From: Botryllus schlosseri
Lineage: Eukaryota
DNA: 64,000 nucleotides
Direction: 5' to 3'
NCBI GenBank assembly: GCA_051294905.1
Contig: CM119371.1
Location: 3,226,001 to 3,290,000, forward strand
The position numbers were made by a program, and so were the translations under genes. Numbering within the stretch: the first letter of the stretch is position 1; each line of letters opens with the position of its first letter. The notes beneath the pieces were generated by a model, which was not told the origin of the DNA, ran no database searches, and saw only the letters and a program-made list of their open reading frames with translations. Shown piece by piece: positions 266-64,000 of the stretch.

Positions 266-271
266 CAACGT

Positions 272-31883: not shown

Positions 31884-31964
31884 GAATGTTTTGCTAAGAA
31901 AACTGAGCCGTTGTCCGCAGTGTGGTTGTCGTTGTTGTTGCCGATATGGATCGTCGAGTTATTA

Positions 31965-33920: not shown

Positions 33921-34876
33921 CAGTGTTGGGATCAAGTCACTACCTTCGAGTCACGAGTCATTTCGAGTCATTGCACATTTTGACTCGAGTCAAGTCAAGT
34001 CAATCGATTTTTGAAGGTGACTCGAGTCAAGTCAAGTCACTAGATTTTTGGAGGTGACTCGAGTCAAGTCGAGTCAAGTCAAGTCAAGTCACGAGTCAAG
34101 TCACAATTCAAGTCAAGTTGCCTTTTCAAAATGTGAGACATGGTTACGTAATTGAATCTTGCTAGCTGTATAAAATACAGATTGAGTGGTCATTGATTTT
34201 GAACAGATGAACGAATATAGATTTAAATGTGCAAGCAAGAAGGCGCTGTATCGCTCACATATACCTACAACTGCTAACTACGTAAGTAATTGCAGAGTCT
34301 CAGGTTATAGTTACGAGCCAAAATCGAGAAAAGAATTTATAAGATACAATACATTATGTATTTACAAATTGATTCGACCTGCGCCAATGGTTGAGGGCTA
34401 TATACACGATATTTGAATTATATTTCAATAAAACAAGAGGTTTGCTTGAGGTAAGAACAGTGAACAGAAATAAAAATTTTGCTATTAAATTGCTCTACTA
34501 TACTAGTTTGCGACAACATAAGCTGTAAGTTTCGGTCCTATGGTTTGCGGTCAATTTATTAGGGAGAGAACAATAACGACTCAATAAAACGCACGACTAA
34601 TGAATGATTGGTCGCTCTCACGGGTTACACCAGCGTTTCGCGAGCAATCTGAACATATGCAAGATACAATATTTTTTGTCGACACCGATTACTTGATGAC
34701 TTGAAATTGACTCGTGAATTTTGCTCCGAGTCACGAGTCAATCCTCATTTCTGATACGCCGAGTCAAGTCAAGTCAAGTCATTTCAGCAAAGTGACTCGA
34801 GTCAAGTCAAGTCATCCGAAAAAGGTGACTCGAGTCTGACTCGAGTCAAGTCATGACTCGAGTCATCCCAACACTG
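33921..34876. mobile_element. hAT-type MITE inserted in the left arm only of element 1
   Basis: TIRs cagtgttgggat / atcccaacactg; TSD gaattaac; the empty site (single gttaattc) is at 45823-45830 in the right arm. Confidence 0.95.
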
Positions 34877-39259: not shown

Positions 39260-39740
39260 CGTTTACCCAGTGTAACAAACCCCTTACCCTTTGGAAATCT
39301 ATTTTTTCTCTGGGTAACAAACCTTTTTCACTTGGAAATATATTTTTTCTCTGGTTAACAAACCTTTTTCACTTGGAAATATATTTTTTCTCTGGGTAAC
39401 AAACCTTTTTCACTTGGAAATATATTTTTTCTCTGGGTAACAAATCTTTTTCACTTGGAAATATATTTTTTCCGCGGGTAACAAACCTTTTTCCCTGAGC
39501 AAGAAACCATTTTCACTTGGTGGTCCATCGTTTTACCCGAGTAAAAATATCATTTTCTTTTGGAGATCCGGCGTTTACCCAGTGTAACAATACATTTTCA
39601 CTTGGAAAAATACTTTTACCTAGAGTAACTAATCATTTTCTCCTGGGTAACAAACCCTTTTCGTCTGGAAACTATCATTTACCTGAGTACCAATACAGTT
39701 TTCACTTGGAAATCTACCTTCTCCCTGGGTAACAATATCA
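39260..39740. repeat. ~39-40-bp tandem array inside the arms (aaacctttttcacttggaaatatattttttctctgggtaac)
   Basis: Several near-perfect units plus degenerate flanks; mirrored at ~42200-42680 and present in element 2 at ~54720-55260 and ~57640-58180. Confidence 0.9.
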
Positions 39741-41128
39741 GTTTCGTTTTGAAAACTGACAACCACACCGGACAATTTGATATTTTTGTATATTGTTACA
39801 ACGGGCAGCGACAAAATATACACCAACAACGACTCCGATACATTTGTCTAATCAAATATTCACTTGATCTGATGCATCCCATCAAAATCATTGGTTACTC
39901 ACATACAATAACAATGAACTGTTGTACATCGACATGTATGTTTTCGGAATTGGCGAATAAATGGGTTTCCGATATGTCCGTGATGTCCGGGTTCGTGCTT
40001 TGGATTTTCCAGAGTCAAAATGCCTGAATAAAACACCTCCTCGACTTTGGTAGCTGGTTGATACACGGATAATGGTATTCGGAAAACGGATGAATTTATG
40101 TTCCCCATCGCGCCAACAACTCCGGGTTACTTGTGAGTTTCCTCAGCTCTGTTTACTATATTGTGTCTTTACTGATCAATACATGTCGCTCCAGTAAGCT
40201 GAAGCCGGATCACTAATATGAGAAAGTGTGTGGGGGCCTGATCCGGATATTCACTCATGAACCAACGACCAATATTCAAGTAAACATGTTACAGACAGTG
40301 TTTTGTCTCCATGAAAAATACCAACCATCACATACAAGTAACGTCACGATTGTTCACAAGTATTCGCGTAAACCAGGTGTACATACAATGTGTCGGTGTA
40401 CAAACATCACGGAAAACAAATTCATGTTCTCAAGTCTCATCATGCGACGACTCTGTACATTCAATGTGGGCATAGATGACTTGGGGACAGGCAAGCAGCC
40501 ATATTTGGACGTAACATGGTCTTAGTATGAACCGGCCTCCGCCCAACTTGTGAAAAATGAATCTCACACGAGTACAATCCTTTCACGGTTTACACCTTGA
40601 TTTTGCAAGATTGTTTGGATTCTCAGGTAGACTTGCATCGTGATCCGGACCTCGATATAATCGTGTTGCGTAACTCACTCAATCCCTGCGTATCGTTGGT
40701 CATAACCTGCTAACTTTTTCGCCGAGACCGCAGTGTTTCACCTGGTTTTATGTATTTGGCGATCACCATCGTTATCAATCTTTCAGGTGATGAATATGCC
40801 GGATGTTGCTACTCCCACATAACGACTCCAGCTAAACATCGTGAGCAGTGACTCCGGATTGAAATCGTAAACAGGGACTCTGTGTGTGTGTGTGAATCTC
40901 GAGTTCGAATACGATTAGATAATGTAATCCAAGGTGTGTCTCTGCGGGTTGAAGACTGATTTCTTGTTAACCACTCCGCAAGAGGGTGCTGTCTCGTAAT
41001 TCTACATGTCGTTATAAAACGTGGTTGGAAACTTTTGGTCTAGTTGATCCAGCTACGTATTGAAACGGTGCACTCACGCAGACCACTGAGAAAACGTTGT
41101 CGTTACCTGACTATATCCACGAGTAATT

Positions 41129-41404
41129 ATGGGACTACGCATAACGTTCCATAGATTCCTCTGGCCCCACACCGTGGTTTTACGACACAGACAAGATGCA
41201 GCGGTGGAAATATTGAAAATGAAAAACGATACCTTGGTGACATTTGATTTGGATTTTACACCTGATGAACCATACACTCGATTGGTACATTGGGATGACA
41301 ACTCTATCGTCGAGGTCGAGGGAAAAGAAATGTACAGATTTGTTGGTGTTGTGGATATTCAGCGAAAATCAGGGTATATGGTTGTGTATGGTTCGCATAT
41401 TTGA
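41129..41404 (+). CDS. 91-aa hypothetical protein in the loop of element 1
   Basis: Intact ATG..TGA; aligns without gaps to 56371-56096 at 55/91 identities (hand count), with synonymous changes (FTPDEPY: cct/ccc, gat/gac, cca/cct). Confidence 0.75.
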   Translation: MGLRITFHRFLWPHTVVLRHRQDAAVEILKMKNDTLVTFDLDFTPDEPYTRLVHWDDNSIVEVEGKEMYRFVGVVDIQRKSGYMVVYGSHI

Positions 41405-44400
41405 CTGAGAATATATCGGTATGCATAATGCACTGTCCATTGTGTCATGACGTGTGTCATCTATGGCCACATTGAATGTACAGAGTCGTCGCATGATGAG
41501 ACTTGAGAACATGAATTTGTTTTCCGTGATGTTTGTACACCGACACATTGTATGTACACCTGGTTTACGCGAATACTTGTGAACAATCGTGACGTTACTT
41601 GTATGTGATGGTTGGTATTTTTCATGGAGACAAAACACTGTCTGTAACATGTTTACTTGAATATTGGTCGTTGGTTCATGAGTGAATATCCGGATCAGGC
41701 CCCCACACACTTTCTCATATTAGTGATCCGGCTTCAGCTGACTGGAGCGACATGTATTGATCAGTAAAGACACAATATAGTAAACAGAGCTGAGGAAACT
41801 CACAAGTAACCCGGAGTTGTTGGCGCGATGGGGAACATAAATTCATCCGTTTTCCGAATACCATTATCCGTGTATCAACCAGCTACCAAAGTCGAGGAGG
41901 TGTTTTATTCAGACATTTTGACTCTGGAAAATCCAAAGCACGAACCCGGACATCACGGACATATTGGAAACCCATTTATTCGCAAATTCCGAAAACATAC
42001 ATGTCGATGTACAACAGTTCATTGTTATTGTATGTGAGTAACCAATGATTTTGATGGGATGCATCAGATCAAGTGAATATTTGATTAGACAAATGTATCG
42101 GAGTCGTTGTTGGTGTATATTTTGTCGCTGCCCGTTGTAACAATATACAAAAATATCAAATTGTCCGGTGTGGTTGTCAGTTTTCAAAACGAAAATGATA
42201 TTGTTACCCAGGGAGAAGGTAGATTTCCAAGTGAAAACTGTATTGGTACTCAGGTAAATGATAGTTTCCAGACGAAAAGGGTTTGTTACCCAGGAGAAAA
42301 TGATTAGTTACTCTAGGTAAAAGTATTTTTCCAAGTGAAAATGTATTGTTACACTGGGTAAACGCCGGATCTCCAAAAGAAAATGATATTTTTATTCGGG
42401 TAAAACGATGGACCACCAAGTGAAAATGGTTTCTTGCTCAGGGAAAAAGGTTTGTTACCCGCGGAAAAAATATATTTCCAAGTGAAAAAGATTTGTTACC
42501 CAGAGAAAAAATATATTTCCAAGTGAAAAAGGTTTGTTACCCAGAGAAAAAATATATTTCCAAGTGAAAAAGGTTTGTTAACCAGAGAAAAAATATATTT
42601 CCAAGTGAAAAAGGTTTGTTACCCAGAGAAAAAATAGATTTCCAAAGGGTAAGGGGTTTGTTACACTGGGTAAACGATAAATCTCCAAAGGACAATGGTA
42701 TTTCTACTCGGGTAACGACCGACCTCCAGGTGAAAATGGTAATTTTACTTGGGTAGGTATCGTATGTTTAGTGTCGTTGGTATTGTTAAACGTTGTCGCC
42801 GGTATCCGTTGGTATACTATTACGAGTGTGAAAAGGATTTACACGACCTGTGCAGAGTATCGCGATAGTAAACATATTTTTGGTGCGACGAAACAAGATC
42901 GTTGTTTAAATTTTAATGCATTTCGATTACCGAGTTGTTGTACAAAAGAGATGACTCTACATTAGACCGTGCTGTATACTTCGATTAAAACCACAAGACC
43001 ACATGTAAATCTATTCGCACAACTCGATGATGTTGATATAGTGTTACTAAAATTGATTATTACCTATTTACACAACATAAAAATATCAATTCACGTCGTA
43101 GCAGGTTTCTTGAACTCGTGCTTGATGAAACGAATGGTGACAAGTAGGCTTTGAGTGAAAAATAATTATTTAGAGTAGTGACATTTTGTGACCAACGAAT
43201 GTAAATCGATCATGATATTACAATATACGTCTTCGTCAACATAACGACTTGGTGTAGAAATACTTTCACGTTTTTTGAATAACTTGATTCTCGAGACTTG
43301 TTACTGGTACGATGTACCATTGGTGACTATAACGGCCATTTTGTATGATAGTATGTTTTAGTTGTATTGTTGTGATGACTCAGCACTTTTCGTTAGCAAA
43401 GTGGGTTGATTTGTGTGTAAGATGTAAGCACCGTGCTAGAAAACATATGTACTCTGTTGTTGGAGTAGCTGATTTATTGTTATGACATGGACATATCCTG
43501 AAGCCTTGGTTTGTTGTCTTACGAAAGATGAGGCGACCTCGGTGTCGTAAATTGTGTTAACTAAACTCGGATGGATACCACAATTGGGCTGGCCTTACAC
43601 CACCAATCATTGTACAGGTTTGTAGCATGAGCGAATATTTTCGTGTAACATGAATATCTTTCGTATACACTTAGTATGAAATGAGATGTGTGGAACAATA
43701 ATTAGTGTCGTACAAAGTGTTGTGTTTGATTGCTTACTTTTTATCAATGTCTTTGTGATGTTAAAAGACGACTGAGTTTTCATTTACATTAAGCGGAGAA
43801 ACTCATGTAATAAATTTTACTCATTTGAAAATCGACTCGCGTGAAAATACCGATCAATGGAGTAGCAATATCAATATGCATGGTATATTATTTTTCGCGA
43901 TATGCACCAACCTTCTAAGTATAACTTTTCAAAAATTTATCATGTCATAGAAAAGTTGGTTTTTATGAAATCGAAACAAATATACTTCGATTACCACGAC
44001 AAAGGAATTGAGATCAACGTAGTATTTCGAAATGGTATGTTCTGCAATCGCTAAATATCAAACTGTGCATACAACTCGGTTAGGTAAACGACCCAGTTAC
44101 AAGACGGATGTATTCTTGATGTACAGATGGCAGTCTGATGATGTAAAGCTCAACCACTCTATCGATTCGAAACAATTGTACTTCGATTATTATGATGATG
44201 GAAATTACGATCAACGGAGTATTTCGAAGTGACTGTGTATCGGTCGGTATGTTCACCAATCGCTAAATGTCGGTTAATTAAAAGATACAAATGACAGCTT
44301 GATGATGGCAAAGCTCAACCACGCAAATGTGTTCATTGCAAAGTATTTGACACGAACAAAATATCGAATGGAGACCATCACATTGGTTTCATTTCGAGTG

Positions 44401-47250
44401 AGTGAAAATTGTTTTCTGTTGGCCAGGTAGGACACATTTGACAAACATCGTGCACATTGTATCTTCGTGATGGTAACGACTTTCAGCGGCTTGGTTTCAT
44501 GTCGGGAATTACTATTTGAGGGTTCGAGAATGATTTCAATCAATACTAGAAATGAGCAACAATGCAAAACACGTTTAGCAAATAACAGTGTGGCAAGTAC
44601 TTTTTCGATATTACGAGTGTTGGGCACTAGACACTTCTAGTTGAATTGGATGCATCTAACAAACATATCACAATTTACTTTTGCAATAATCAAAGTCTTA
44701 GAGTGTATAACCTCGCGATATTTTACATTTGGCACGCACAATGGGGAGTTACTGAAATGATTAAGAATTGATCAATTGAATTGTTTCAAAGTATGATCTT
44801 GAAATATGACTGGATCAAAGTTGGTAGTCATGTTTGTCAAAGTCCAAATATTTCATTTTGGATTATCTGGATTTACCTTTAGTACATCCCGCGAATGGAT
44901 TTCGATGCGGTACTATAACATTTTTGATAATAATGACTCAAGGATTTTCAATCAACAATACTGGAATTTTTTGGTAATGCTAGAGTTGCCAAATGATTAG
45001 TTGCGTGTTTTTGTTAAGTGTTTGATTTCAAGTTAATAAAGACAATAACTGTGTAATGCACATACTTGTGATTCTTGATTCTTGTAGAGTTATAGTTGGT
45101 ATTGATTCTATAAGTGTGAAAACAGTGGCGCGGAATGTGCGAATAATTCGATGCGGCTGAAAGTCGGCGTCAGTAATATTCGGGTTACGTTCGATTCAAC
45201 AAAAACGCGTTATGGGATTTGTCAAAGGATTAGAGTTGTACCGATTTAAAACATTCAGATACGAATCGACTTGATTTGTGTAGTGAGTTTCATTTCAAGT
45301 TGATAAACTAACACATTGATTGAATATTTTCATGGATCTTATCACGCAACTAAAGTCAGCCACTATTCTGGAGGCGTGAAACATATAGCGATCGCGGGCG
45401 AGTGACAAATTGTCGGTTTTCCAATCACCGCCTGCGACGGTTCTGTGACAAACTAATTACCGAAATATTACCTTGTGGGCGGGTATGAGGAATTGCTATG
45501 TCTGAAGTATTATCCGGTGAGTGGTCGTTGGATTTTAAAATTATATCACACCCTTTTGAATAAGCGTTCACTTCACAAAGGATTAGGGTTAGAGCGGAAA
45601 TAAGTGACAATTTGTCGCTATTCAAGTTACCGCGGTCTGTTATTCGTTACTTGTTAAATCTTACCAGCGATATCAAGTTCTGTGACAAACTGATTACTAA
45701 AATTTCTCCGCGTGAGCGATCGGTATGGTTATGACACCAAGTCGTGAAAGATGGTTATGACCGAGACATTATCTTGTTAGCGATCGCGGGGTTTTGCAAA
45801 CTATTTCACAGCTATTTGAAGTGTTAATTCGTGAGCGTTGTTATTGTTGATATTCGAATCGCCGTCTACGCCGGCTCTGTGGTAAACTAAATACCAAAAT
45901 ATTACCTTGCAAGTGATTCCTAGACTTGGCAAACTATTTCACACCTTTTTTGCTGAAAGTACGACATGCCGCCCGCAGTCTATACCGAAAGTACGAATCA
46001 CGACCGCACCCATAAGAACACATGCCGAATCACCACAGATCCCGTAAGAATACACGACAGGCGAATCGCCGCCACCGCCTATAGCAAAAAAGGCGAGTCA
46101 CGACCACGAGTTTTCACGGCGAATCACGACCGCGGCCTATACCTGGAAAGGCGAATCACGACCGCACCCATAAGAACACATGGCGAATCGCGGCCCAGAG
46201 GGGGGTCTAAAAAGGCGAATCGCCACCCCGGGTTTCCAGGCGAATCGCCGCCGCACCCATAAGCCACAATGGCACACCACGACCGATCATACTAACTACT
46301 TTGGGGCCCCATACGGTGATATGCCCGACTTTTCGGGTAAGAAGTCCATTTGGCTTTAGTTTTTGGGCTGCTACTTATCAGCGAGTTTTGTGTACTGTTT
46401 GGCAAGTCAGCTTTAGTCGTCTAGACTCGCGAAAGACGAAATTTTTATATAATACATGACTAAATCGGTCAATATGATCAGGAATTGGATATATATGTTG
46501 TTATCATTTTTTTATTTCCTCTCTGGTCATTTAACCAGATTTATTGGTAGAACTGAGTGAGTTGTCTTGGAAAATGTAGGGGCCGTTAATAATGATGAAA
46601 CAACTTCGGGCGGACCCGTTGGTATAATGATTTTATCGCATGATATTATTTAGTGACCTCCTGTCTGCTATGTCGAAAGATACTGGCAAATAATTTTTCC
46701 CTGCGAGATGACATCTGTCTTGTGGGATTCAAATTTCTTGGACAGGAACGTTCAGCGTCATATATTTAGCGGCTATGGACATATTGGACAATATATCGAA
46801 GTTTTCGGTCAGTATAGGGGCGGTCTTTTTCAGCCAAGGATTTCTCTCTGGCGATTTTCCTGACACACTTCTCGGGGTCGCATGTGACATGGCCTAAAAC
46901 CACATATATCTTGGTACGTTGTGGCACCGTAATGGCCGAGGCCGAAATGTCAATTTCTCTAAATAATGCTCATCTGTTCTTGGGGAGGTAACCAATACTC
47001 AGGATATTTGGCAACAATAAATCGCGCGCAACGCGGAACATTTATGAAAATGTTGGATATCTATGAATTTCCCAAATTTCCAATTTCGTTAGGTTTGGGG
47101 TACCACAGAAGCCTGAACACTAATGAAATCTTCAAGACTTCCAGGCCTGGAAAAACTTCTTCACATATTTTGAACATCATTGTAAAGGTGCCTTCAGCAG
47201 ACCCTTCCCCAAATTTACAAACCGTATTGAATAAAGAGCATTATACTCAC

Positions 47251-49000: not shown

Positions 49001-52000
49001 AGTAGTATAGTAGATCGCTCACATGACGCGCTTTTTAACATGGGGTAGTATAGGGCCCGCTGGTGAGGTGCCGCGAAACTCGTGTTGGTGATGGCACCCT
49101 TTTGACCCCCCCTTCCGCTGGTGAGGTGCCATGGGTTCTTATGGGATCTCTGGTGATGGTACCCTTTCAGGTATAGGCTGCGTCAGTGATGTGCCGTGAA
49201 AACTCGTGTTGGTGAGTCGTATTTTCGGGTATAGGCTGTGTCGGTGATGTGCCTGTCATGTATTCTTACGGGATCTCTGGTGATGTGCCATTGTCTCTTA
49301 TGGTATCTCTGGTGACGGCACCCTTTCAGGTATAGGCTGCGTCGGTGATGTGTCTGTCATGTATTCTTACGGGGTCTCTGGTGATTCGCCATGTGTTCTT
49401 ATGGGTGCGGTCATGAATCGCCCTTTCGGGTCTAGTCAACTCTCGCGCTGTGTTGAATAGGTATCAGGAATAGTAAATAGTCACGTGATTGATTCTTAGT
49501 TAATGTGTACATTACAAATTATTAAATATGACTGATTCGAGTTAATCCCAACGTTTACGGTGAGTACGACAATGATATATCGTTATTCTTATGGCGGGGG
49601 TGGCATGCGGCTCTTATGTCTTACGGCGGGGGTCGCATGCGGCTGGGAAATCCGGGGTGGCAAGCGGCTCTTTTGTCTTATGGCGGGGGTGGCATGCGGC
49701 TATTTGTGTCTTGTGGTCGCACGGTAATCCTTTCAGGTAGAGATGATTTGACTAACGTTGTGGGTATAGGCGCGGCGGCACGGTGTTGAATATGTACCAG
49801 ATGAATAGTCATGTGAATGTACCTTTGTTAATGTGTATATCGTAAATTATTATATATGATGTAGTTTAGTCGTGACAAACGACCGATCGTCTCAAGTCTT
49901 TTCGCGCTGTGTCTATTGATTTCTACGTAACCTGAATAGTACTTTCAGATCGGATTATTCGCACCTTGTATACCGCTGTTTCGCACCTACAGAATAGTCT
50001 GCTGTTCACAACCACAACAAGAATCACAAGTATACACATTTATACATTCATTCATTACTGTCAAATCAAACTAAAGCACGCACAATCGTATCATTAACTT
50101 TTTTTTACCATCACCCAAAATAATTCAAGTATTCCTTGGCTGAAAATCCTTGAGTCCTTATTATCAAAAATGTTATGGTGCGGTGTCGGAATCCATTCGC
50201 AGGATGTACTAAAGGTAAATTCAGATAATCCACCCGCGATCGCTCACAAGATAATACCTAAGACATAACCATCGCTCGCGACTCGCTGTTACATGCATGC
50301 CGATCGTTAACAATGTAATATTTTGGTAATTGGTTTGCCACAGAGCCGGCGTAGACGGTGATTCGAATATCAACAATAGCAGCGTTCACAAACCAACACT
50401 TCAAAAACGCGTGAAATAGGTTACAAATCCCACGATTGCTCACAAGATAACACCAAAGACATAGCCATTTCTCGCGTCTTGTCATTACATACATCCCAAT
50501 CGCTACAGTGTAATATGTCGATGGTTGTTACTATCAAGTAATAAGTAATGAATAACAGTACCAGCGCAGACCGTGATTCGAAAACCGACAATTTGACACT
50601 TGCACGCGATCGCTATATGTTTTGACACTTCATAACAGTCGTTGACTTTGCGTGATACAAATCATGAAAATATTCAATCAGTGTGTCAATTTGTCAACTT
50701 GAAATGAAACTTACTACACAGCTCAAGTTGATTCGTATCTGAATGTGTTAATTCGGTACAATTCTAATTATTTTGAGTAATCTTTTTAACGCGATCAGTT
50801 GATTCGAACGTAACCTGAATATTACTGACTCCAACTTCAGCCGCATCGAATTATTCACACATTCCACACCGCTGTTTCACACCTATAGAGTCAACACCAA
50901 CTAAGTCAACAAGAATCAAGAATCACAAGTACGCACATACAATCATTGCATTTATCAACTTGAAATCAAACAATTAACAAAAACATGCAACTAATCATTT
51001 GCCAACTCTAGCATTACCAAAAAATTCAGGTATTGTTGATTGAAAATCCTCGAGTCCTTATTATTAAAAATACGGGGTCGGAATCTATTCGCGAGATGTA
51101 CAAAAGGTAAATTCAGATAATCCAAAATGGAATATTTTGACTTTGGTATAGTGTGAATTGAAATAGGACTGACAAACATGACTACCAACTTTCACGCAGT
51201 CACATTTCGAGATTTCGGGCATATTGATTTGAAACAAGTATTGAAACATCACAACTCTATTCACGAATTGACTTTACGTATGTCAAAGAGAGTTTCAGAA
51301 ATACTATCGCTATGACATCTCAACATATTAACATCTTGTCATACGCAAAAGAGTAAAATACAAAAACCTTGTCAAGTCAATCCGTTTGTAACTTACCAGA
51401 CCAACTCAAACAGTATCAGTATGAAAAACAACCAAACATACACGAATCCATACAATCACTAAAACCTTAAATCCGTAACAAGCTTGGTTGTATTCATATC
51501 CCTACGACGCATCTTTTTTATTCAACTTGAAAAGTCGTTACTATTCTGTAAGATAGAGGAATTACTACGCGGTATATTCTGCAAGACAAACTAATTACTA
51601 CTCGGTATATTTTGTAAGACAAAAGTAATTACTTCTCAGTGTCGGCGACTTGAGATTAACATAATATGTTTGAGTATACGAGATTTGAAAGTCCGACCAA
51701 CGTAGTTGAGAATTCATTTCTTACAATCGAACGATGGTGTTATATTCAAAGTTATCATGCTGTGAACATAAGGATTGACACATTGATTTGACATATGAGA
51801 TTTTGTAATAGTTGATCATTACTTTATTATTAAATTATTTGCGTTAATTAGACACGGCGTTGTGCTAAATGTTATGACAGCAACAAACTTTTCAGTGCCA
51901 TTGTTCTTAACATATTAAGTTGTAAAACTATACGTGTCTGAAATGTTCTTGATTGGAGAATGACTCCACCTCGATAAAAATCACTCTGCGTATCGCGATA

Positions 52001-55000
52001 TCAGGAAATATTTTACAAATGTAATTGTTTCCAGTAACCAAGACTAAAGATGTAACAGCAATATCGGTATTATTACATTCAACAACCAGTACAATTATTA
52101 AAATCTATCGTTTGCGATAAACAACGCTAAAGATGCAATAATTCCATTATTCATACATTGAACATCCGATACAAAATGCTTTATTATCCCGATTCGCAAC
52201 GGGTAATTGAAACGACTAAGTGTAGAGTCAGTATATCACAATGAGACGTCGTTACTATTGAATCCAGCAATTGATACGATTTATTGCAGGGATTTGTGAC
52301 AGCGCATTGAAACATACACAACTTACAGAGTGTGAAAATATCACTTTGGGTATCGAGTACCCTTTGAAGCGCGCGATCAATACATAATTCCAGTCGCACT
52401 CTCTAAGACATTGTGAAGTCTACGGATTTACACTTCAAGACTTTGATCAACACAGAAGCAATTTGGAATGTCTTTACTGGACGCATCCTATTCTACTAGA
52501 CTTGAGTATACGCAAAACTCATAGCATTAACAAAATCGCAATAGGCGCTACACTGAAATTTACAAAATGTGTTTGTATTCTTGCTCAAAGTAGTGATCAT
52601 GAATTATCATTTGAATCTTCTAAAGTAATTGTAATCGTAAAACCAAACTTGCGAAAGTCATTACCATAACAGAAGAATATTGTAGGTTGCTTGCTAAATG
52701 TATGCCGGAAATATTTGTAGAACGCTCACGACCAAAGAAATCGGAAATTGTCATTCATCAAAGTAAATGTCGTCACAATACTCTGCCGCTAAAAGACGTT
52801 ACTCGTATGTGATTGAATCGCCGGTGATTAACTCGCTAAATCAAACCCTAAGAAATTTCACTCACTCATCGGATATTAAACAGCGTCGCTTAATCGGTGT
52901 AGTTCGTTTTTTTTTTCTAAATGCAAATCATACCTAGCCAAGAGAAAACAATTTTCACTCACCCGGTAATGAAACCAAGCGGTGGCTCTTCGTTCGATAT
53001 TTTGTTTGCGTCAAATACTTTGCAATGAACACATTTGAGTGGTTGAGCTTTACATCATCAAGCTGTCATCTGTAAATCGAGATTACATCCGACTTGTAAC
53101 TCTATCGTTTAACTAACCGAGTTGTATGCACAGTTTGATATTTTGGTCATTTAGTGATTGCTGAACATACCAAACGATGCACACCCACCTCCGAAATACT
53201 GCGTTGATCTTAATTTCCATCATCGTGATAATCGAAGTACATTTCCCTCGAATTCATAACAACCAACTATGACATGATAGATTTTTGACAAGTTTACTTA
53301 GAAGGTTTGTTGCATATCGCGAAAAATAATATACCACTCACATTGATACTTTTACTCCATTGATCGATATTGTCAAACGAGTAAAATTTATTACTTGAGT
53401 TTCTCCGCTTACTATATGTAAATGTAAACTCAGTCGTCTTTCAAAACCATAACAAACAATGATAAAAAGTAGGCAATCAAACGCTGCAAGTTTAACTTTT
53501 GTAGGTTGTGTATGATTACCCCACGCAACTCATTTCATACCAAAGGTATATGAAATATATTCATGTTACACGAAAATACTCGATATTCCCATGCTACAAA
53601 CCTGTACAATGATTGGTGGTGCTTTCAAACTGTTTCGATACCTCAAGAACTTTATTGTCTGAATGGTTGTTCATGTATCTTAATAATCAAGTAGTTCAAC
53701 ACAGAACTAGTATTAACAGAAACACCAGAGTTGTTTACACAAAAGTTTGTATGTGTACAGTATACGAATACCATGTGTAAGTCCAGCACAATTGTGGTAT
53801 CCATACGAGTTTAGTTAACACAATTTACGACACCGAGGTCGCGTCATCTTTCGTAAGACAACAAACCAAGGCTTCAGGATATGTCCATGTCATAGCAATG
53901 AATCAGCTACTCCAACAACAGAGTGCATATGTTTTCTAGTTACGGTGCTTACATCTTACACACAAATCAATCTACTTTGCTAACGAAATGTGGTGAGTCA
54001 TCATATGGTTATCCTCACTAGTAAAACATACTATCATACAAAATGGTCGTTATAGTTTGCACACCAACGGTACATCGTACAAGTAACAAGTCTCGAGAAT
54101 CCAGTTATTCAAAAAACGTGAAAGTATTTCTACACCAAGTCGTTATGTTGACGAAAGCGTATATTGTAATATCATGATCGATTTGCATTCGTTGGTCACA
54201 AACTGTCACTACTCTAAATAATTCTTTTTCACTCAAACACAAACGCATACTTGTCACCATTCGTTTTCATCAAGTACGAGTTCAAGAAACTTACTACGAC
54301 ATGAATTTTTATTTTTATATTGTGTAAATAGGTATTAATTAATTCAAGTAACACTATATCAACATCATCGAGTTGTGCTAATAGATTTACATGTGGTCTT
54401 GTGGTTTTCGTCGGGACATACAGCACGAACTAACTGTAGACTCCTCTCTGTTGTACAGCTACTCGGTAATCGAAATGCATTAACATGTAAACAACGATCT
54501 TGTTTCGTCACACCAAAAATATGTTCACTGTCGCGATACTCCGCACAAGACGTGCATAGCCTTTTCACACTCGTAATAGTATACCAACGTCAAGCGATAA
54601 CGTTTAACAAGACCAACGACACTGAACCCACGACGTTTACCTATGTAAAATTACCACTTTCACTTCTCAGTCCATCGTTTACCTGACTAAACATATTATT
54701 CTCCTTTGGAGATCTGACGTTTACCCAGAGTAAGAAACCATTTTCACTTGTAAATATATTTTTTCCTTGGCTAACAAACCTTTTTTCACTTGGAAATATA
54801 TTTTTTCTCTGGTTAACAAACCTTTTTTCACTTGGAAATATATTTTTTCTCTGGTTAACAAACCTCTTTCACTTGGAAATATATATTTTTCCTCTGAGCA
54901 ACAAACCATTTTCATTGGAAATATATTTTTCCCTGAATAACAACCCATTTTCACTTGTAAATATATTTTTCCCTCAGCAACAAACCTTTTTCACTTGGAA

Positions 55001-58000
55001 ATATATTTTTCCCTGAGCAACAAACCATTTTCACTTGGTGGTCCGTCGTTTAGCCGAGTAAAAATATCATTTTCCTTTGGAGATCTGGCGTTTGCCCAGT
55101 GTAACTATACATTTTCGCTTGGAAAAATACTTTTACCTAGAGTAACTAATCATTTTCTCCTGGGTAACAATCCCTTTTCGTCTGGAAACTATCATTTAAC
55201 TGAGTACCAATACCGTTTTCACTTGGAAATACATTTTTTCCCTGGGTAACAATACCATTTTCGTTTTGAAAACTGACAACCACACCGGCCAATTTGATAT
55301 TTTTGTATATTGTTACAACGAACAGTGACGGAAATATACACAGACTACCGGTTTCAGAGTATACCCCCATCAGTCGTATCACATCAATATCATCGGTTAA
55401 CGACATACAATATGCTCTTGTACACCGAAATGCATGTTTTGGAAAATTGGACAATAGGCTTCGATAGTTCTGTGATGTCCGGGTTCGTGCTTTGGATTTT
55501 CCAGAGTCAAAATGTCTGAATAAAACACCTCCTTGACGATGGTTGGTATGTGGATAACGGTGTTCGGAAAACGGTTGGATTTATGTCACCCATCGCGATA
55601 ACAACTCCAGGTCGAGTTTTCCTCTCGCATGTTTACTATACTGTGTCTTTATTGGTCAATGTATGTCTCGACATTCAGTTTGAAATCGGAAATGATAAAG
55701 TATGTAACCGGATCCGGATATCAACTGTGAATCGATAAACCAATGGACAATATTCAAAGTAAACATGTTACACCCTGTGTTTCCACGAAAAAATACCATC
55801 CAGACATACGTCGCGCTTGTTTGCCCACACCAGTATACGCGTAAATGGAGGTGTGTGACATTGCATGCAATGTGTTGGTATACAAACATCGATCCACAGA
55901 CATTATCGTAGCCGGTAGTTTTGATGTAGATCGAATGTCACCTGATAACAATGTCATACCAATAAGCCACATTGCAATGACTCTGAGTCAATCTGAAGCA
56001 TGATATACGGACACACAAACATAGAAACCGTAACATGGGTATTCACACGACGGTGAAAGTGAACTATACAGCATATACCAATAGAGTGTTCACAGTCAAA
56101 TATGCGAACCGTGCACAATCATATACCCTGTTTTTTGTTGGATATGTACGAAACCAATAAATCGATACATTTCTGTTCCTTCGATGTCAATAATACAAGC
56201 GTCGTTCCAATGTATCGCTCGAATGTAAGGTTCGTCGGGTGTAAATGCCATGTCAAATAACACCAAAGTGTGCCTTCTGTGTTTTATTATTTCCACCGAT
56301 GCATCTTACCTGTGTCGTAACACTATGGTGCAGGGACTCGAAAAACGGTACTTTGTAAAACGGATTGACATGCCCAACTGAATCGACGTCAATAGCCTTG
56401 TGACGATGGCGTTTCAAAATGATACCGATCTCTTGTGGTGATGACCGTTTCGAAATGTCACCGGACGAACTGGACCCTTACGATGATGTGTTTTATGATT
56501 GCGTGTGAAATCACGAGGTAGTGTTCTATTGTGGTGTACGATTGCAGTCTTCATTCCACAGAAACATACCTTATTGGATCACAGTATCAGTCCGAGATTT
56601 ACAGAATCACTGTTCACGATATTTATCTGGAGTCGTTATGTGGGAGTAGCGACATCCATTCATCGTGACTGAAAGACTGATCGCAATCATTTCGAGCACC
56701 CGTGATTCGATAGTTCACCTAGATCAAACGCTGCAGTCTCGGCAGAAAATTTCGGTGTCGACAACACGACGGATATTGACCGATGTATCCAATTGGTCTG
56801 GGTGGTCTGTCTGCAGATAGAGTCATGACTATCTTGCAATGTAACAACACGATAAGACCATCGAGTAAATCAGTGAACGGTGTCGAAATATCGATGTAAT
56901 AGCGCAGACTCAGAGTCATTGCAATGTGGCTTATTGGTATGACATTGTTATCAGGTGACATTCGATCTACATCAAAACTACCGGCTACGATAATGTCTGT
57001 GGATCGATGTTTGTATACCAACACATTGCATGCAATGTCACACACCTCCATTTACGCGTATACTGGTGTGGGCAAACAAGCGCGACGTATGTCTGGATGG
57101 TATTTTTTCGTGGAAACACAGGGTGTAACATGTTTACTTTGAATATTGTTCATTGGTTTATCGATTCACAGTTGATATCCGGATCCGGTTACATACTTTA
57201 TCATTTCCGATTTCAAACTGAATGTCGAGACATACATTGACCAATAAAGACACAATATAGTAAACATGCGAGAGGAAAACTCGACCTGGAGTTGTTATCG
57301 CGATGGGTGACATAAATCCAACCGTTTTCCGAACACCGTTATCCACATACCAACCATCGTCAAGGAGGTGTTTTATTCAGACATTTTGACTCTGGAAAAT
57401 CTAAAGCACGAACCCGGACATCACAGAACTATCGAAGCCTATTGTCCAATTTTCCAAAACATGCATTTCGGTGTACAAGAGCATATTGTATGTCGTTAAC
57501 CGATGATATTGATGTGATACGACTGATGGGGGTATACTCTGAAACCGGTAGTCTGTGTATATTTCCGTCACTGTTCGTTGTAACAATATACAAAAATATC
57601 AAATTGGCCGGTGTGGTTGTCAGTTTTCAAAACGAAAATGGTATTGTTACCCAGGGAAAAAATGTATTTCCAAGTGAAAACGGTATTGGTACTCAGTTAA
57701 ATGATAGCTTCCAGACGAAAAGGGATTGTTACCCAGGAGAAAATGATTAGTTACTCTAGGTAAAAGTATTTTTCCAAGCGAAAATGTATAGTTACACTGG
57801 GCAAACGCCAGATCTCCAAAGGAAAATGATATTTTTACTCGGCTAAACGACGGACCACCAAGTGAAAATGGTTTGTTGCTCAGGGAAAAATATATTTCCA
57901 AGTGAAAATGGTTTGTTGCTGAGGGAAAAATATATTTACAAGTGAAAATGGGTTGTTATTCAGGGAAAAATATATTTCCAATGAAAATGGTTTGTTGCTC

Positions 58001-60664
58001 AGGGGAAAAATATATATTTCCAAGTGAAAGAGGTTTGTTAACCAGAGAAAAAATATATTTCCAAGTGAAAAAAGGTTTGTTAACCAGAGAAAAAATATAT
58101 TTCCAAGTGAAAAAAGGTTTGTTAGCCAAGGAAAAAATATATTTACAAGTGAAAATGGTTTCTTACTCTGGGTAAACGTCAGATCTCCAAAGGAGAATAA
58201 TATGTTTAGTCAGGTAAACGATGGACTGAGAAGTGAAAGTGGTAATTTTACATAGGTAAACGTCGTGGGTTCAGTGTCGTTGGTCTTGTTAAACGTTATC
58301 GCTTGACGTTGGTATACTATTACGAGTGTGAAAAGGCTATGCACGTCTTGTGCGGAGTATCGCGACAGTGAACATATTTTTGGTGTGACGAAACAAGATC
58401 GTTGTTTACATGTTAATGCATTTCGATTACCGAGTAGCTGTACAACAGAGAGGAGTCTACAGTTAGTTCGTGCTGTATGTCCCGACGAAAACCACAAGAC
58501 CACATGTACATCTATTAGCACAACTCGATGATGTTGATATAGTGTTACTTGAATTAATTAATACCTAATTACACAATATAAAAATAAAAATTCTTGTCGT
58601 AGTAAGTTTCTTGAACTCGTACTTGATGAAAACGAATGGTGACAAGTATGCGTTTGTGTTTGAGTGAAAAAGAATTATTTAGAGTAGTGACAGTTTGTGA
58701 CCAACGAATGCAAATCGATCATGATATTACAATATACGCTTTCGTCAACATAACGACTTGGTGTAGAAATACTTTCACGTTTTTTGAATAACTGGATTCT
58801 CGAGACTTGTTACTTGTACGATGTACCGTTGGTGTGCAAACTATAACGACCATTTTGTATGATAGTATGTTTTACTAGTGAGGATAACCATATGATGACT
58901 CACCACATTTCGTTAGCAAAGTAGATTGATTTGTGTGTAAGATGTAAGCACCGTAACTAGAAAACATATGCACTCTGTTGTTGGAGTAGCTGATTCATTG
59001 CTATGACATGGACATATCCTGAAGCCTTGGTTTGTTGTCTTACGAAAGATGACGCGACCTCGGTGTCGTAAATTGTGTTAACTAAACTCGTATGGATACC
59101 ACAATTGTGCTGGACTTACACATGGTATTCGTATACTGTACACATACAAACTTTTGTGTAAACAACTCTGGTGTTTCTGTAAATACTAGTTCTGTGTTGA
59201 ACTACTTGATTATTAAGATACATGAACAACCATTCAGACAATAAAGTTCTTGAGGTATCGAAACAGTTTGAAAGCACCACCAATCATTGTACAGGTTTGT
59301 AGCATGGGAATATCGAGTATTTTCGTGTAACATGAATATATTTCATATACCTTTGGTATGAAATGAGTTGCGTGGGGTAATCATACACAACCTACAAAAG
59401 TTAAACTTGTAGCGTTTGATTGCCTACTTTTTATCATTGTTTGTTATGGTTTTGAAAGACGACTGAGTTTACATTTACATATAGTAAGCGGAGAAACTCA
59501 AGTAATAAATTTTACTCGTTTGACAATATCGAAATCTCGAAATGTGACTGCGTGAAAGTTGGTAGTCATGTTTGTCAGTCCTATTTCAATTCACACTATA
59601 CCAAAGTCAAAATATTCCATTTTGGATTATCTGAATTTACCTTTTGTACATCTCGCGAATAGATTCCGACCCCGTATTTTTAATAATAAGGACTCGAGGA
59701 TTTTCAATCAACAATACCTGAATTTTTTGGTAATGCTAGAGTTGGCAAATGATTAGTTGCATGTTTTTGTTAATTGTTTGATTTCAAGTTGATAAATGCA
59801 ATGATTGTATGTGCGTACTTGTGATTCTTGATTCTTGTTGACTTAGTTGGTGTTGACTCTATAGGTGTGAAACAGCGGTGTGGAATGTGTGAATAATTCG
59901 ATGCGGCTGAAGTTGGAGTCAGTAATATTCAGGTTACGTTCGAATCAACTGATCGCGTTAAAAAGATTACTCAAAATAATTAGAATTGTACCGAATTAAC
60001 ACATTCAGATACGAATCAACTTGAGCTGTGTAGTAAGTTTCATTTCAAGTTGACAAATTGACACACTGATTGAATATTTTCATGATTTGTATCACGCAAA
60101 GTCAACGACTGTTATGAAGTGTCAAAACATATAGCGATCGCGTGCAAGTGTCAAATTGTCGGTTTTCGAATCACGGTCTGCGCTGGTACTGTTATTCATT
60201 ACTTATTACTTGATAGTAACAACCATCGACATATTACACTGTAGCGATTGGGATGTATGTAATGACAAGACGCGAGAAATGGCTATGTCTTTGGTGTTAT
60301 CTTGTGAGCAATCGTGGGATTTGTAACCTATTTCACGCGTTTTTGAAGTGTTGGTTTGTGAACGCTGCTATTGTTGATATTCGAATCACCGTCTACGCCG
60401 GCTCTGTGGCAAACCAATTACCAAAATATTACATTGTTAACGATCGGCATGCATGTAACAGCGAGTCGCGAGCGATGGTTATGTCTTAGGTATTATCTTG
60501 TGAGCGATCGCGGGTGGATTATCTGAATTTACCTTTAGTACATCCTGCGAATGGATTCCGACACCGCACCATAACATTTTTGATAATAAGGACTCAAGGA
60601 TTTTCAGCCAAGGAATACTTGAATTATTTTGGGTGATGGTAAAAAAAAGTTAATGATACGATTG
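49001..60664. mobile_element. Second, diverged giant palindromic AGTAGT element (element 2), right arm interrupted
   Basis: Starts AGTAGTATAGTAGATCG, with subterminal repeats related to element 1; arms 49001-55989 and 56907-60664; 917-bp loop; colinear homology with element 1; the right end and TSD are not in the window. Confidence 0.85.
56096..56371 (-). pseudogene. Homologue of the 91-aa loop ORF with an in-frame TAA at codon 22
   Basis: MSIRFTKYRFSSPCTIVLRHR*DASVEIIK...GSHI*; same 276-bp length as 41129-41404; TAA at 56306-56308 replaces CAA. Confidence 0.75.
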
Positions 60665-63600
60665 AGTAGTATTATACAGCGGGTTTATACGCCGACCAAT
60701 AGTCATCGAGTATTTGATCACGTGACATCTGTTAGCCAATCAGAATGCAGAACAATGTAGGTGTGGTTCCAATACGAGAGAGGTTTTGGTTGTTGGAGAG
60801 ATGGCATAGTTCCAGTCCAGTAACGCTGAGATATTTATTACGTCATTGCGTAAGTTGATTACCTATGATTGCGTATTGCACCATATTCATGATTACGTCA
60901 CAAGCGTAGTTGATTACTTTAGTTATTACTAGAGCGACTTTGCTTAGTTCCAGTAACGCTGAGATATTATCACGTCATTATTGCGTGTAGTTCCAGTCTA
61001 ATAACGCTGAGAAATGTTTACGTTATTATGATTGTGCAGTTGAAGCATGTGCAGTAATGATTACGTCATATGCGTAGCTGATTACTTTAGTTATTACGAG
61101 AGCGGCTTTGCTTAGTTCCAGTCCAGTGAAAACTAACATTTAAGCCGTCACTATCCCAGGATCTCAGGGGAGCTCTACGCGGTGTTCTGAACGATTAGTA
61201 AATGTGCTCGATCGTTTATTACTTCAAATAAACTGCACATGTGTATTTGATTGTGTAAAATGTATTATAAAAGTCAGTCGACGGAAGTGAATAGACAAGT
61301 CTGAACCTGTATATTGCAGCATATTAGAGATAAATTGTGCAATAACCGTTTTCGCTGAGTCATAAAACAAAACAAAATGGGAAGTATGAGCGATTTGCAA
61401 GTTTGATGCACCTGAAATCGGTATCATTATAACGTTCATTTCATAAAAAGTCAATTTTGACTTGCACAAATCATCATCGAGGCTACTCAAGGGTTAAATT
61501 ACACTCAAAAGCTAATCAAGTAGCATCACCTGCGATAATGCTACTGCGTATTGCTATTTGGAAAAGCTCCAATAGCAAAGCCAGCATCAGCATTCTGGAA
61601 AACTTGCAATAGCTTATTTTTATTAATCATTGAAATCGTGCACATTATAATAGTGAACGTCTTTTGTACAAACTAATTATTTTCATCAACAACGCAAGAT
61701 AATTGATAATTTACCTAAAAAATGAATAAGATATACACAAAGCAACAATGTTATTAATTTCAACATAACGACCAATTCCGTTGCGCATGCTATGTTTTCG
61801 AAACGACTACATTAGTCGCGCATGAAGCAGATCTGTCCACCCTGTACTATAGTAATGTGTTAAATGTGTACTCAAATGTATATTGTGAATAAGACCAGTT
61901 ACGCTACAGCTACTGTGTTTGTTACTTCCAGTCCAATAACACTGATAAATATTTACGTCATTATGATTGCGTATTGCAGTTGAAGCATGTTCAGTAATGA
62001 TTACGTCATATGCGTAGTTGATTACTTTAGTAACGCTGAGATATGATTACGTCAATATTGCGTTGATCGCCTTTGTTATTGCAGTTGAAGCAAGTGCAAG
62101 GCAATATATAACGTGTAATATTTATTACATGATTATTCGCTGTACGCTGTAGATTGAATGTGTGTAATAATATAAAAATTGGCTAAAATTGTGAATATCT
62201 AATCATTGTGAAAATAGCAATTATCTCATGTTGTTGATGAAAATGATCAGCTTACGTTGTTATAAGCTCCAAAGCATGATTTAAATATTTTTTAAATATT
62301 CCATTTTTTAAATAATAATACTTTGGTTCTAACTTTGGAATAATAATTATTGATAATATTTTCATTATTCATTGAAATCATTGTAGCTTATAACGGTGTA
62401 CATCTTTTAAATATTATTGTAATGATATCAATTATTAACGAAAAAATATTATCAATAATCTTATTGATTTTTTAGTTAAATTATCGATTATCTTGTGTAG
62501 TTGATAAATTAGTTTGTACAAAAGACGTTCACTGTTATAATCTACATGATTTCAATGATTATTAAAAAATAATTTTACTATTAAATCTAACAAAGTAACA
62601 ATATAAAAAATTGGCTAATATTGTGAATATCGTATCATTGTGAAATTAGCAATTATCTCGTGTTGTTGATGAAAATAATCATCTTACGTTGTATTAGGAT
62701 TAATTTTACAAAACTGTAGTGTAAAGGTTTTTAGTACTTTGGAAAAAGTAGTTTCTATCTACTTTACTAAATTTGATGTAAAGTGTTCGACGATTTAAAA
62801 AATTGGTATTTATTTTACAAAATCCCCACTATAAAAGTTTTTATAAAATCGACTTGAGTAAGTACTGTCACTAGGCAAACGCTAGCAGAGTGTACTCTGA
62901 TAAATGTAATAGTAGTAATCGATTATCGCGAAATAAATAGATAACATACAATATGTGCGTTGCTACGATGTCTCATAAATACTTTCATTTAATGTATACA
63001 AGTAGGTTATTTATACGTTAAGTAAAGAATAAAAAAATTAACGCTATCTCCGTAGAAAGATATGTAAATATACTAGAACGGTTACATCTGAACGCCTGCA
63101 AGTAAGAACGTAAGCTGATCATTTTCACCAACAACATGAGATAATTGCTAATTTCACAATGATTAGATATTCACAATATAAGCCAATTTCTATATTTTTA
63201 CTGATTATCTTATCATTGTGAGGTTTATTCAACTCTCATTAATTCAGGATTCTAGAACTACTGAAGTCTCATGGAATTATAAAATACCGTGCTTTGCAAA
63301 CAATGTAAAAATAATAGAAGCGAAGTTAGCTTGGTTCCCTGGGGACATCTATGCCTTTGTCAGGAATGTTCATCCAACGATTAGGTAATTGAATGCGCGC
63401 GCTTATCAATGCGTCTTGAAAAGCTGGTGGACGGGAAGTGAATACCCTAGACAAGTCCGAACCTGTATGTATTGCAGCATATTAGAGATAGCTTGTGCAA
63501 TAGCCCTAAATACAACAAAATGCGGAGAGCTGATATCGCAATAGGTGCGCGGTATTCGACAATAACAAAACGCAATTGTTCGAACTTAGTGCATCCCATA

Positions 63601-64000
63601 CCGCATTGTTAGCTCTAAATACTTATAACCGTTGAAAAATCTATTCCCCAATGAGTTAGACAGAAATGCGTTAGTCGTAGCGATTCAATCGTGTGCTCTA
63701 TAATAACAAAAACACAAATGACTTAGTGGATATCACTGCTAGCTCTAAATACCAGTTGCATAGCTGAGGCTAAATGCCGTAAATAACTACTGAGTTGGCC
63801 GAGTGGTGATGTACTTGCTCGGAAATCGTCACTTCTTGCACTTTACTAAAAATTTGCTGCTACTAAAATGTTAAAATGTACTTTTTTCAATGGCCTTGAT
63901 GAGCAGCGTCAGTTTCATCTATATCCTATCATGCATTTTCGTACAGCAGAATGACTTATCGCATCGTAGAATAGCAAAAATACATCGAGAATCTGCAGAC
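60665..64000. mobile_element. Third AGTAGT-starting element (different sequence family) inserted into the right arm of element 2; right boundary unknown
   Basis: Arm symmetry stops exactly at ...tacgattg|AGTAGTATTATACAGC; followed by subterminal repeats (ttccagt..taacgctgagatat..acgtcatt) and AT-rich internal direct and inverted duplications. Confidence 0.6.

What the first reader, a model, noticed from the sequence alone, without database searches (positions are those of the whole stretch)
49001..60664. Arms are near-identical within each element but clearly diverged between elements
Seen: the left and right arms differ by only occasional substitutions in each element, whereas element 1 and element 2 differ by many substitutions and indels, which are shared by both arms. 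Known: protein-primed replicons (adenovirus panhandle, proposed Polinton racket intermediate) correct one TIR against the other. Inference: the multi-kb arms are re-homogenised at replication or by gene conversion, so the palindromic architecture is old and maintained.
Basis: partly seen in the sequence, partly recalled or inferred. Interest (0 to 1): 0.7.

Follow-up and report, generated by a model that had tools for sequence, protein, structure and literature searches.

The report
Palindromic Maverick-type elements keep arms matched
Two neighbouring copies of a giant mirror-image mobile element differ from each other at about one base in six, yet each keeps its own two halves almost identical, and most identical near the ends, which suggests one half is re-copied from the other while the element replicates.

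Summary
Observation confirmed. E1 (33443-46300) and E2 (49001-60664, right arm cut by a third AGTAGT-started element) have Maverick/Polinton ends; E1 has a perfect 6-bp TSD. Neither carries core genes. In four-way alignments, 341 inner and 94 outer sites, and all 47 indel runs, group the arms by element; no site groups left with left. Letters rare in the family sit in both E2 arms at 10 of 12 sites. The spacers are homologous, so the palindrome probably predates the E1/E2 split.

Added here: arm identity has two tiers. Outside a one-arm deletion the arms differ at 0 of 2656 sites, inside it at 27 of 5944 (p=7e-5). This favours copying that works inwards from the ends over patchy chromosomal conversion, and it means arm-arm divergence is not a simple insertion clock. 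The spacer is about twice as diverged as the arms (0.34 vs 0.16-0.19), but so are the arm tips.

The mechanism is inferred from two copies; no genome was available. The scan already noted this family many times in this genome, including lock-step arms. Concerted evolution of inverted repeats is known elsewhere.

The parts
49001..60664 (.). Element 2 (E2): near-palindromic, core-gene-less Maverick/Polinton-ended element, right arm interrupted
49001..50082 (+). E2 left terminus (AGTAGT) and outermost left arm, no partner in the window; GC-rich short repeats homologous to the E1 terminus; candidate left TSD at 48995-49000 cannot be matched
50083..51217 (+). E2 outer tier, left copy (0/1135 differences from 59530-60664)
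51218..53363 (+). E2 segment present in the left arm only (2146 bp lost from the right arm; junction has 3-bp microhomology)
   Evidence: homologous to E1 left-only and E1 inner-arm DNA
53364..55989 (+). E2 inner tier, left copy (11/2626 substitutions against 56907-59532); holds an array of about 41-bp units
55990..56906 (.). E2 single-copy spacer (917 bp), homologous to the E1 spacer in the opposite orientation
56096..56371 (-). E2 copy of the 91-codon spacer ORF, broken by an in-frame stop at codon 22
56907..59532 (-). E2 inner tier, right copy
59530..60664 (-). E2 outer tier, right copy, ending at the E3 junction
60665..64000 (+). E3: sequence starting AGTAGT with no similarity to E1/E2, probably a third Maverick-ended element inserted into E2's right arm; other end not in the window
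   Evidence: no blastn hit to the E1/E2 left halves at E<=0.01
33443..46300 (.). Element 1 (E1), 12858 bp, AGTAGT...ACTACT termini
33437..33442 (+). E1 left 6-bp TSD (TTGGGG)
46301..46306 (+). E1 right 6-bp TSD (TTGGGG); does not extend beyond 6 bp
33443..33920 (+). E1 outer tier A (0/478 against 45823-46300)
33921..34876 (.). 956-bp hAT-like insertion (8-bp TSD, 12-bp terminal inverted repeat starting CAG) in the left arm of E1 only; the hAT label is recalled from TSD length and ends
34877..35927 (+). E1 outer tier B (0/1051 against 44780-45830)
35928..37162 (+). E1 segment present in the left arm only (1235 bp lost from the right arm; 6-nt insert at 44774-44779 that repeats adjacent sequence)
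37163..40480 (+). E1 inner tier, left copy (16/3318 against 41456-44773)
40481..41455 (.). E1 single-copy spacer (975 bp)
41129..41404 (+). Intact 91-aa ORF of no known family, under purifying selection against the E2 copy (dN/dS about 0.38)
41456..46300 (-). E1 right arm (inner tier 41456-44773, outer tier 44780-46300)

Best explanation
E1 and E2 are copies of an old, helper-dependent family of near-palindromic Maverick/Polinton-ended elements whose two arms evolve in concert. SHOWN: Maverick-type ends, a 6-bp TSD (E1), no core genes, arms grouping by element, a shared spacer, and a perfect outer tier with a 0.45%-diverged inner tier split at a one-arm deletion. INFERRED: a helper's protein-primed polymerase replicates the element outside the chromosome and a helper integrase inserts it. 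During replication one arm is re-copied from the other, working inwards from a terminus: either the new strand folds back on itself after the spacer and continues on its own first arm (snap-back), or the 3' end of the hairpin ('racket') intermediate is trimmed and refilled. Everything outside the switch point becomes identical; everything inside keeps older differences. In E1 and E2 the last events stopped at or outside the deletion, or an out-of-register snap-back made the deletion itself (microhomology in E2, templated insert in E1). The inner tier then records time since the last deep re-copy, and only the outer tier bounds the insertion age (under about 0.2% arm-arm divergence).
For: No conflicting site in 2317+632 ungapped columns, and 47 of 47 indel runs shared within an element. 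Family-minority E2 letters (0.2-14% of summed depth in run X1) are in both arms at 10 of 12 high-depth sites in paired DNA; at 5 of the 7 shared sites mapped to E1, E1 has the family-majority letter, so these are E2-lineage changes copied to both arms. Spacers align only in the opposite orientation (score 397.5 vs 2.0; best of 30 shuffles 9.5) and share an ORF. Tier contrast 0/2656 vs 27/5944, Fisher p=7e-5; each element alone p=0.005 and 0.04; about 12 outer differences expected at the inner rate. Five other inverted repeats in the window keep 5-27% arm differences, so palindromes are not generally homogenised or collapsed here. End motif and TSD match vertebrate Mavericks (PMC8097293, passages). 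A racket-like single-strand intermediate is the proposed Polinton route (PMC4196379, passages, second-hand).
Against: Only two copies were analysed; no genome was held, so the gradient was not tested on intact copies. No helper was seen here; its existence rests on unchecked scan notes. The change-point is loosely placed: the first inner difference lies 617 bp (E1) and 123 bp (E2) past the junction, so the boundary could be anywhere across the left-only segments. Within the inner tier the differences are spread evenly, with no gradient (KS p=0.48 and 0.83). Both outer tiers took a transposon insertion while taking no substitution, which fits very recent insertions but also fits in-place conversion of point differences. 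The ORF-upstream spacer junction aligns weakly (p=0.47 vs 0.57-0.60 for shuffles). The right-arm deletion joint was not among the 15 of 254 joints shown. The control palindromes are shorter and of other families.
Confidence: 0.55

Rival explanations
1. The palindrome is old, but the arms are homogenised by non-polar gene conversion or mismatch repair, either in the chromosome (as in Y-chromosome palindromes) or on the folded hairpin, in multi-kb patches. The perfect outer tiers are recent patches.
For: Same tree prediction. Y palindrome conversion tracts average about 2 kb and arms diverge less than spacers (PMC3723533, passages). Here too the spacer is more diverged than the arms. Two insertions but no substitution in the outer tiers.
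Against: The inner arms are longer uninterrupted pairs next to the loop, yet they are the diverged ones in both elements (p=7e-5). E1 is perfect on both sides of a 956-bp one-arm insertion. Other palindromes in the window are not homogenised.
Confidence: 0.2
2. The palindromes are young and arise repeatedly: E1 and E2 each come from a separate fold-back of one end of already diverged non-palindromic parents at a fixed hot spot. Arm identity then reflects recent origin, not maintenance.
For: Also predicts grouping by element and shared rare letters. Snap-back defective genomes are a known class (PMC13506859, passages, RNA viruses). One spacer junction aligns poorly.
Against: Needs the same switch site (one junction within about 23 bp; spacers 975 and 917 bp) in lineages whose spacers differ by 34%. 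Needs parents with about 6 kb of gene-less end. Does not by itself give two tiers.
Confidence: 0.12
3. The elements are giant foldback DNA transposons of a cut-and-paste type (FB/TU-like) moved by an ordinary transposase, and the AGTAGT ends are coincidental.
For: No Maverick gene is present. The arms hold tandem arrays. An unchecked scan note files the family near foldback elements.
Against: (AGT)2//(ACT)2 ends with an exact 6-bp TSD match the Maverick signature. FB/Mutator TSDs are 9-11 bp (recalled). Cut-and-paste gives no step that re-copies kilobases of arm.
Confidence: 0.08
4. Arm identity is an assembly or polishing artefact (collapse, or chimeric fold-back reads).
For: The outer tiers are perfect. 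No record spans the element, so the arms were not phased with reads.
Against: 27 substitutions and no indels survive in the inner tiers, which are the hardest part to phase, while the flank-anchored outer tiers are the perfect ones. One-arm deletions, a one-arm insertion with its own TSD, and E1's TSD are kept. Both arms carry family-minority letters, not the majority letters expected from polishing with pooled reads. Other palindromes in the window retain differences.
Confidence: 0.05

Closest known systems
Mavericks/Polintons (vertebrate survey, PMC8097293, passages read)
   Same: (AGT)2//(ACT)2 termini, exact 6-bp TSD, total size (12.9 kb; published range 12.7-24.6 kb), terminal inverted repeats.
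   Different: Published TIRs are 46-1447 bp; here paired arms total 4.8 kb in E1 and at least 3.8 kb in E2. No pPolB, integrase, ATPase, protease or capsid gene. The unique centre is under 1 kb.
Butterfly polintons with about 2-kb gene-bearing TIRs and polB-less derivatives (bioRxiv 10.1101/2025.02.07.637071, passages read)
   Same: Long TIRs; derivatives that lack polB and appear to have stayed mobile.
   Different: Those keep core genes and a large unique centre; 'palindrom' does not occur in the main text.
Snap-back/copy-back defective viral genomes (PMC13506859, passages read)
   Same: Helper-dependent, near-fully palindromic, almost no coding capacity.
   Different: Described there for RNA viruses as by-products of replication. 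These are integrated DNA elements, inherited long enough to diverge by 15% or more, and keep a small gene in the loop.
Concertedly evolving inverted repeats: human Y palindromes (PMC3723533, passages), plastid IR (PMC5010901, abstract), TIRs of linear mtDNAs and mitochondrial plasmids (PMC3673629, passages)
   Same: Arms near-identical within a molecule and diverged between lineages; spacer or single-copy DNA more diverged than arms; repeat boundaries move.
   Different: Those are resident chromosomes or organelle replicons homogenised by recombination. Here it is a multicopy transposing element with an apparent end-in polarity.
Foldback transposons (Drosophila FB, sea-urchin TU; recalled, no paper read)
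   Same: Long inverted arms with internal tandem arrays around a short loop; non-autonomous.
   Different: TSD length and termini differ (recalled 9-11 bp TSD); arm identity here reaches 100% over more than 1 kb.

Membership tests
Maverick/Polinton | 5'-(AGT)2//(ACT)2-3' or (AG)3//(CT)3 end motif | tested here: met
   E1 both ends; E2 left end only (motif from PMC8097293)
Maverick/Polinton | 6-bp target site duplication | tested here: met
   E1 TTGGGG on both sides, not extendable; E2 not checkable in the window
Maverick/Polinton | Terminal inverted repeats | tested here: met
   far longer than the published 46-1447 bp
Maverick/Polinton (autonomous) | Encodes pPolB and retroviral-like integrase, plus ATPase, protease and capsids | tested here: not met
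   Longest stop-to-stop frame in E1/E2 is 144 aa. No Pfam hit at cut-off in 36 frames of >=70 aa from the E1 and E2 left halves and E3, the spacer ORF, its E2 piece and one right-arm frame. No codon periodicity at p<0.05 in 30 arm blocks. Only Pfam was scanned.
Non-autonomous Maverick derivative | Shares terminal sequence with an autonomous Maverick of the same genome | not testable with these tools
   No genome held; no match to E2's first 25 bases in viral contigs; unchecked scan notes claim such helpers
Non-autonomous Maverick derivative | Multicopy and recently mobile | tested here: met
   Summed depth 7e4-5e5 inside the element vs 274 in the flank bin (X1), same pattern in X4 and X5 (not a copy number); two copies in one window; perfect outer arms
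FB/Mutator-type foldback transposon | 9-11 bp TSD (recalled) | tested here: not met
   E1 TSD is exactly 6 bp
Concertedly evolving inverted repeat | Arms cluster by molecule, with derived changes shared by both arms | tested here: met
Concertedly evolving inverted repeat | Repeat predates the divergence of the compared lineages | tested here: inconclusive
   Spacer homologous and one junction within about 23 bp, the other weakly aligned; favours but does not prove a single origin
Concertedly evolving inverted repeat | Arms diverge more slowly than single-copy DNA (ancestral-biased correction) | tested here: inconclusive
   Arms 0.16-0.19 vs spacer 0.34-0.36, but the terminal 478 bp of the arm is 0.32-0.38 and some arm windows reach 0.3-0.45
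Snap-back defective genome of a protein-primed replicon | Extrachromosomal hairpin or terminal-protein-capped form replicated by a helper polymerase | not testable with these tools
   needs wet-lab or raw long-read data

The most novel reading that the evidence does not exclude
These elements are a stable class of integrating, giant-hairpin satellites of Mavericks whose arm differences form a fossil record of the helper polymerase's replication. One-arm deletions mark template-switch points, identity falls off from the termini inwards, and the unpaired loop mutates about twice as fast as the paired arms because damage in the paired stem is repaired from the other arm. With hundreds of copies in one genome, this would be the first sequence-level test of the single-strand 'racket' model of Maverick replication.
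Probability: 0.3. Interest if true: 0.72.

Novelty: new variant of a known kind. Interest (0 to 1): 0.45.

Why it matters
How Mavericks/Polintons replicate is still a proposal from sequence features (PMC4196379). A multicopy family that is almost all inverted repeat makes that testable by computation: polarity of arm identity, switch points, and loop-versus-stem mutation rates can be read across copies. Practically, it shows that arm-arm divergence cannot be used like LTR-pair dating without separating the tiers. The principle that inverted repeats evolve in concert is well known, and this family has been reported many times by this scan, which limits the surprise.

Tried and rejected
Whole-genome analysis: no genome held.

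Spacer 'flip' as evidence of isomerisation: rejected. In a symmetric element orientation is defined only by the deletion, which simply hit the ORF-downstream arm in E1 and the ORF-upstream arm in E2.

Threefold slower arms (arms 0.11-0.16 in BLAST-chosen blocks vs spacer 0.355): reduced to about twofold once the whole contiguous arm was aligned, and weakened because the arm tips are as diverged as the spacer.

Excess transitions in the spacer: not significant (p=0.13). Bias of private changes to one arm: not significant (9:2 in E1, p=0.07; 12:7 pooled, p=0.36). Secondary structure at the four deletion breakpoints: within background.

Function of the 91-aa ORF: Pfam only E=0.1; three unnamed homologues at 98/75/71%; profile search gave one family member plus a WD40 protein at E=8e-4, taken as chance; atlas no usable hit; viral contigs none and metagenome contigs three weak partial matches not followed up; model pLDDT 35, so no fold search was run.

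Expression: no RNA holder listed; run X23 gave 254 reads from about 6% of the run, 92% running on unlike, so no verdict. Rfam: no match in 33000-64000. Host lineage from the NACHT ORF: 11 unnamed hits, no taxon.

Literature: searches (titles and abstract starts; passages for four of the listed papers) showed no description of near-fully palindromic non-autonomous Mavericks. Kapitonov and Jurka 2006 is not held; I recall that it mentions non-autonomous Polintons and could not check what it says of their TIRs. Pritham et al. 2007 and Repbase entries were not seen. No supplements were read.
Full report
Anatomy. Self-comparison shows two related giant inverted repeats. E1 spans 33443-46300, begins AGTAGT, ends ACTACT and is flanked by an exact 6-bp duplication that does not extend further. 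E2 begins AGTAGT at 49001. Its right arm stops at 60664, where an unrelated sequence starting AGTAGT begins (E3), so E2's right end is probably beyond the window. That end motif and TSD length are the signature of vertebrate Mavericks, whose TIRs run 46-1447 bp (PMC8097293, passages). No core gene is present: frames are at most 144 aa, none of those scanned reaches a Pfam cut-off, and 30 arm blocks show no codon periodicity. The host is a eukaryote with a NACHT/NOD-type ORF nearby; an unchecked scan note calls it a tunicate. No genome was held. The family is high-copy: summed depth is 7e4-5e5 inside E2 against 274 in the flank bin of run X1, with the same pattern in X4 and X5 (not a copy number).

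Four-way alignment of L1, R1, L2 and R2 gives 341 sites grouping arms by element in 2317 inner columns and 94 in 632 outer-core columns, with none for the two alternative splits. All 39+8 indel runs are shared by both arms of one element, and the trees have bootstrap 100. Over the whole contiguous left arm E1 and E2 differ at 16-19% of aligned sites, depending on the aligner setting.

Homogenisation is recent and lineage-specific. One search showed 40 of 331 variable places. Fifteen fall in paired DNA; three at the junction with depth near 200 were set aside. At 10 of the other 12, E2's letter is a minority in the family (0.2-14% of summed depth in X1) and sits in both arms; at 2 it is private to the left arm. 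At 5 of the 7 shared sites that could be mapped, E1 has the majority letter (one gap, one third letter), so the E2 letter is derived. Caveats: contig depth is a rough measure, and X1 may be the source sample.

Artefact is unlikely. Polishing with pooled reads would push arms to majority letters, not minority ones. The inner arms keep 27 substitutions and no indels. One-arm deletions and a one-arm insertion are preserved. Five other inverted repeats in the window keep 5.2, 7.1, 9.5, 25 and 27% arm differences, although they are shorter and unrelated. No read or contig spans the element, so this is indirect.

Is the palindrome old? The spacers (975 and 917 bp) align only in the opposite orientation (397.5 vs 2.0; shuffles at most 9.5). 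They share a 91-codon ORF, intact in E1, with a stop at codon 22 in E2, and under purifying selection (29/61 synonymous vs 50/209 non-synonymous differences, p=0.0007). On the ORF-downstream side the arm/spacer junctions coincide within about 23 bp (read). On the other side the first 300 bp align weakly (0.47 vs 0.57-0.60 for shuffles). A single origin before the split is the simplest reading; repeated fold-back at a hot spot remains possible (0.12). The opposite orientation is not evidence of isomerisation, because only the deletion defines left and right.

Each right arm lacks a segment present on the left: 1235 bp in E1 (junction with a 6-nt insert that repeats adjacent sequence) and 2146 bp in E2 (3-bp microhomology). 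Part of E2's left-only DNA is paired arm in E1, and unchecked scan notes describe symmetric copies with 6.2-6.8 kb arms, so these are deletions. Their outer breakpoints lie about 21 bp apart in homologous coordinates, with different inner breakpoints; no unusual structure was found there. Outside the deletions the arms differ at 0 of 2656 sites, inside at 27 of 5944 (Fisher p=7e-5; E1 alone 0.005, E2 alone 0.04). About 12 outer differences would be expected at the inner rate. Simple decay after insertion cannot give this. The inner differences must largely predate the last re-copy of the outer arms, so a single arm-arm figure is not an insertion age; the outer tier bounds it at under 0.2% (E1) and 0.26% (E2).

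Mechanism (inferred, 0.55). Copying that starts at a terminus and works inwards explains perfect outer and diverged inner tiers. In protein-primed strand displacement, a new strand that has passed the spacer can fold back and extend on its own first arm, or the 3' end of the folded single strand can be trimmed and refilled. Any event reaching past the deletion would have removed the asymmetry, so while the deletion persists only the outer tier is reset; an out-of-register switch could also create the deletion. The single-strand racket intermediate is the proposed Polinton route (PMC4196379, second-hand); ITR repair in adenovirus is recalled only (listing). Against: two copies only; a loosely placed change-point; no gradient within the inner tier; and two transposon insertions but no substitution in the outer tiers, which in-place conversion could also give (rival, 0.2).

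Spacer versus arms. The spacer differs at 34-36% and the arm at 16-19%. Even non-synonymous sites of the ORF (24%) exceed the BLAST-chosen arm blocks (14%; p=0.0002). This resembles Y palindromes (1.44 vs 2.00%, PMC3723533) and the plastid IR (2-3-fold slower, PMC5010901, abstract). Unbiased homogenisation would not slow the arms, so either repair favours the old base in paired DNA or copies exchange arms. The terminal 478 bp is as diverged as the spacer (0.32-0.38, repeat-rich, alignment uncertain), which points equally to mosaicism. Unresolved.

Comparison and verdict. It works like a snap-back satellite with concertedly evolving arms (PMC13506859; PMC3673629). It carries Maverick ends but fails the gene test for an autonomous Maverick, and the link to a helper could not be tested. 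Five library searches found no account of near-fully palindromic non-autonomous Mavericks, but the founding papers and Repbase were not seen. The scan has reported the family many times in this genome, including lock-step arms; a word search for the spacer-versus-arm contrast found no note. Verdict: real; first reading largely right except for the clock; new variant of a known kind; interest 0.45.

Noticed in passing
window 27756-29219 (-): 487-aa stop-to-stop ORF with NACHT and NOD2 winged-helix domains (NLR-like); 11 unnamed relatives at 40-52% identity.
   Followed up: partly
window 60665-64000: E3, an AGTAGT-started, AT-rich sequence unrelated to E1/E2, with internal direct and inverted repeats of about 100 bp and a 210-bp palindrome at 62359-62568; probably a second Maverick-ended family nested in E2.
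   Followed up: partly
window 35927 and 51217: Two independent one-arm deletions start within about 21 bp of the same homologous position; family depth also collapses at 51215-51271 in three runs, so this spot seems unusually variable.
   Followed up: partly
window 33921-34876: 956-bp non-coding hAT-like element with (AGTCA)n subterminal repeats and an 8-bp TSD, in one arm of E1 only.
   Followed up: partly
window 30389-31889: 1.5-kb foldback with 5% arm differences and arrays containing TTAGGG-like units.
   Followed up: no
window 2164-5157: Composite foldback built of 21-, 24-, 41-, 65- and 106-bp repeat units; outer arms 7% different.
   Followed up: no
window 271-1600: GC-rich 41-bp satellite array with a 264-bp higher-order period.
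   Followed up: no
window 49916-50232 vs 50799-51124: About 330-bp direct duplication (70% identity) inside E2's outer arm.
   Followed up: no
window 50908-50911: A few RNA reads in run X23 (6 and 4) carry poly(T) loose ends here, possibly a polyadenylation site used by some family copies on the minus strand.
   Followed up: no
window 32285-32456 vs 47771-47943: 68% similar direct repeat on either side of E1, about 1.0 and 1.5 kb from its ends.
   Followed up: no
window 5200-27000 and the elements: No CpG depletion in host DNA (o/e 1.0) or in the elements (1.07-1.33).
   Followed up: no
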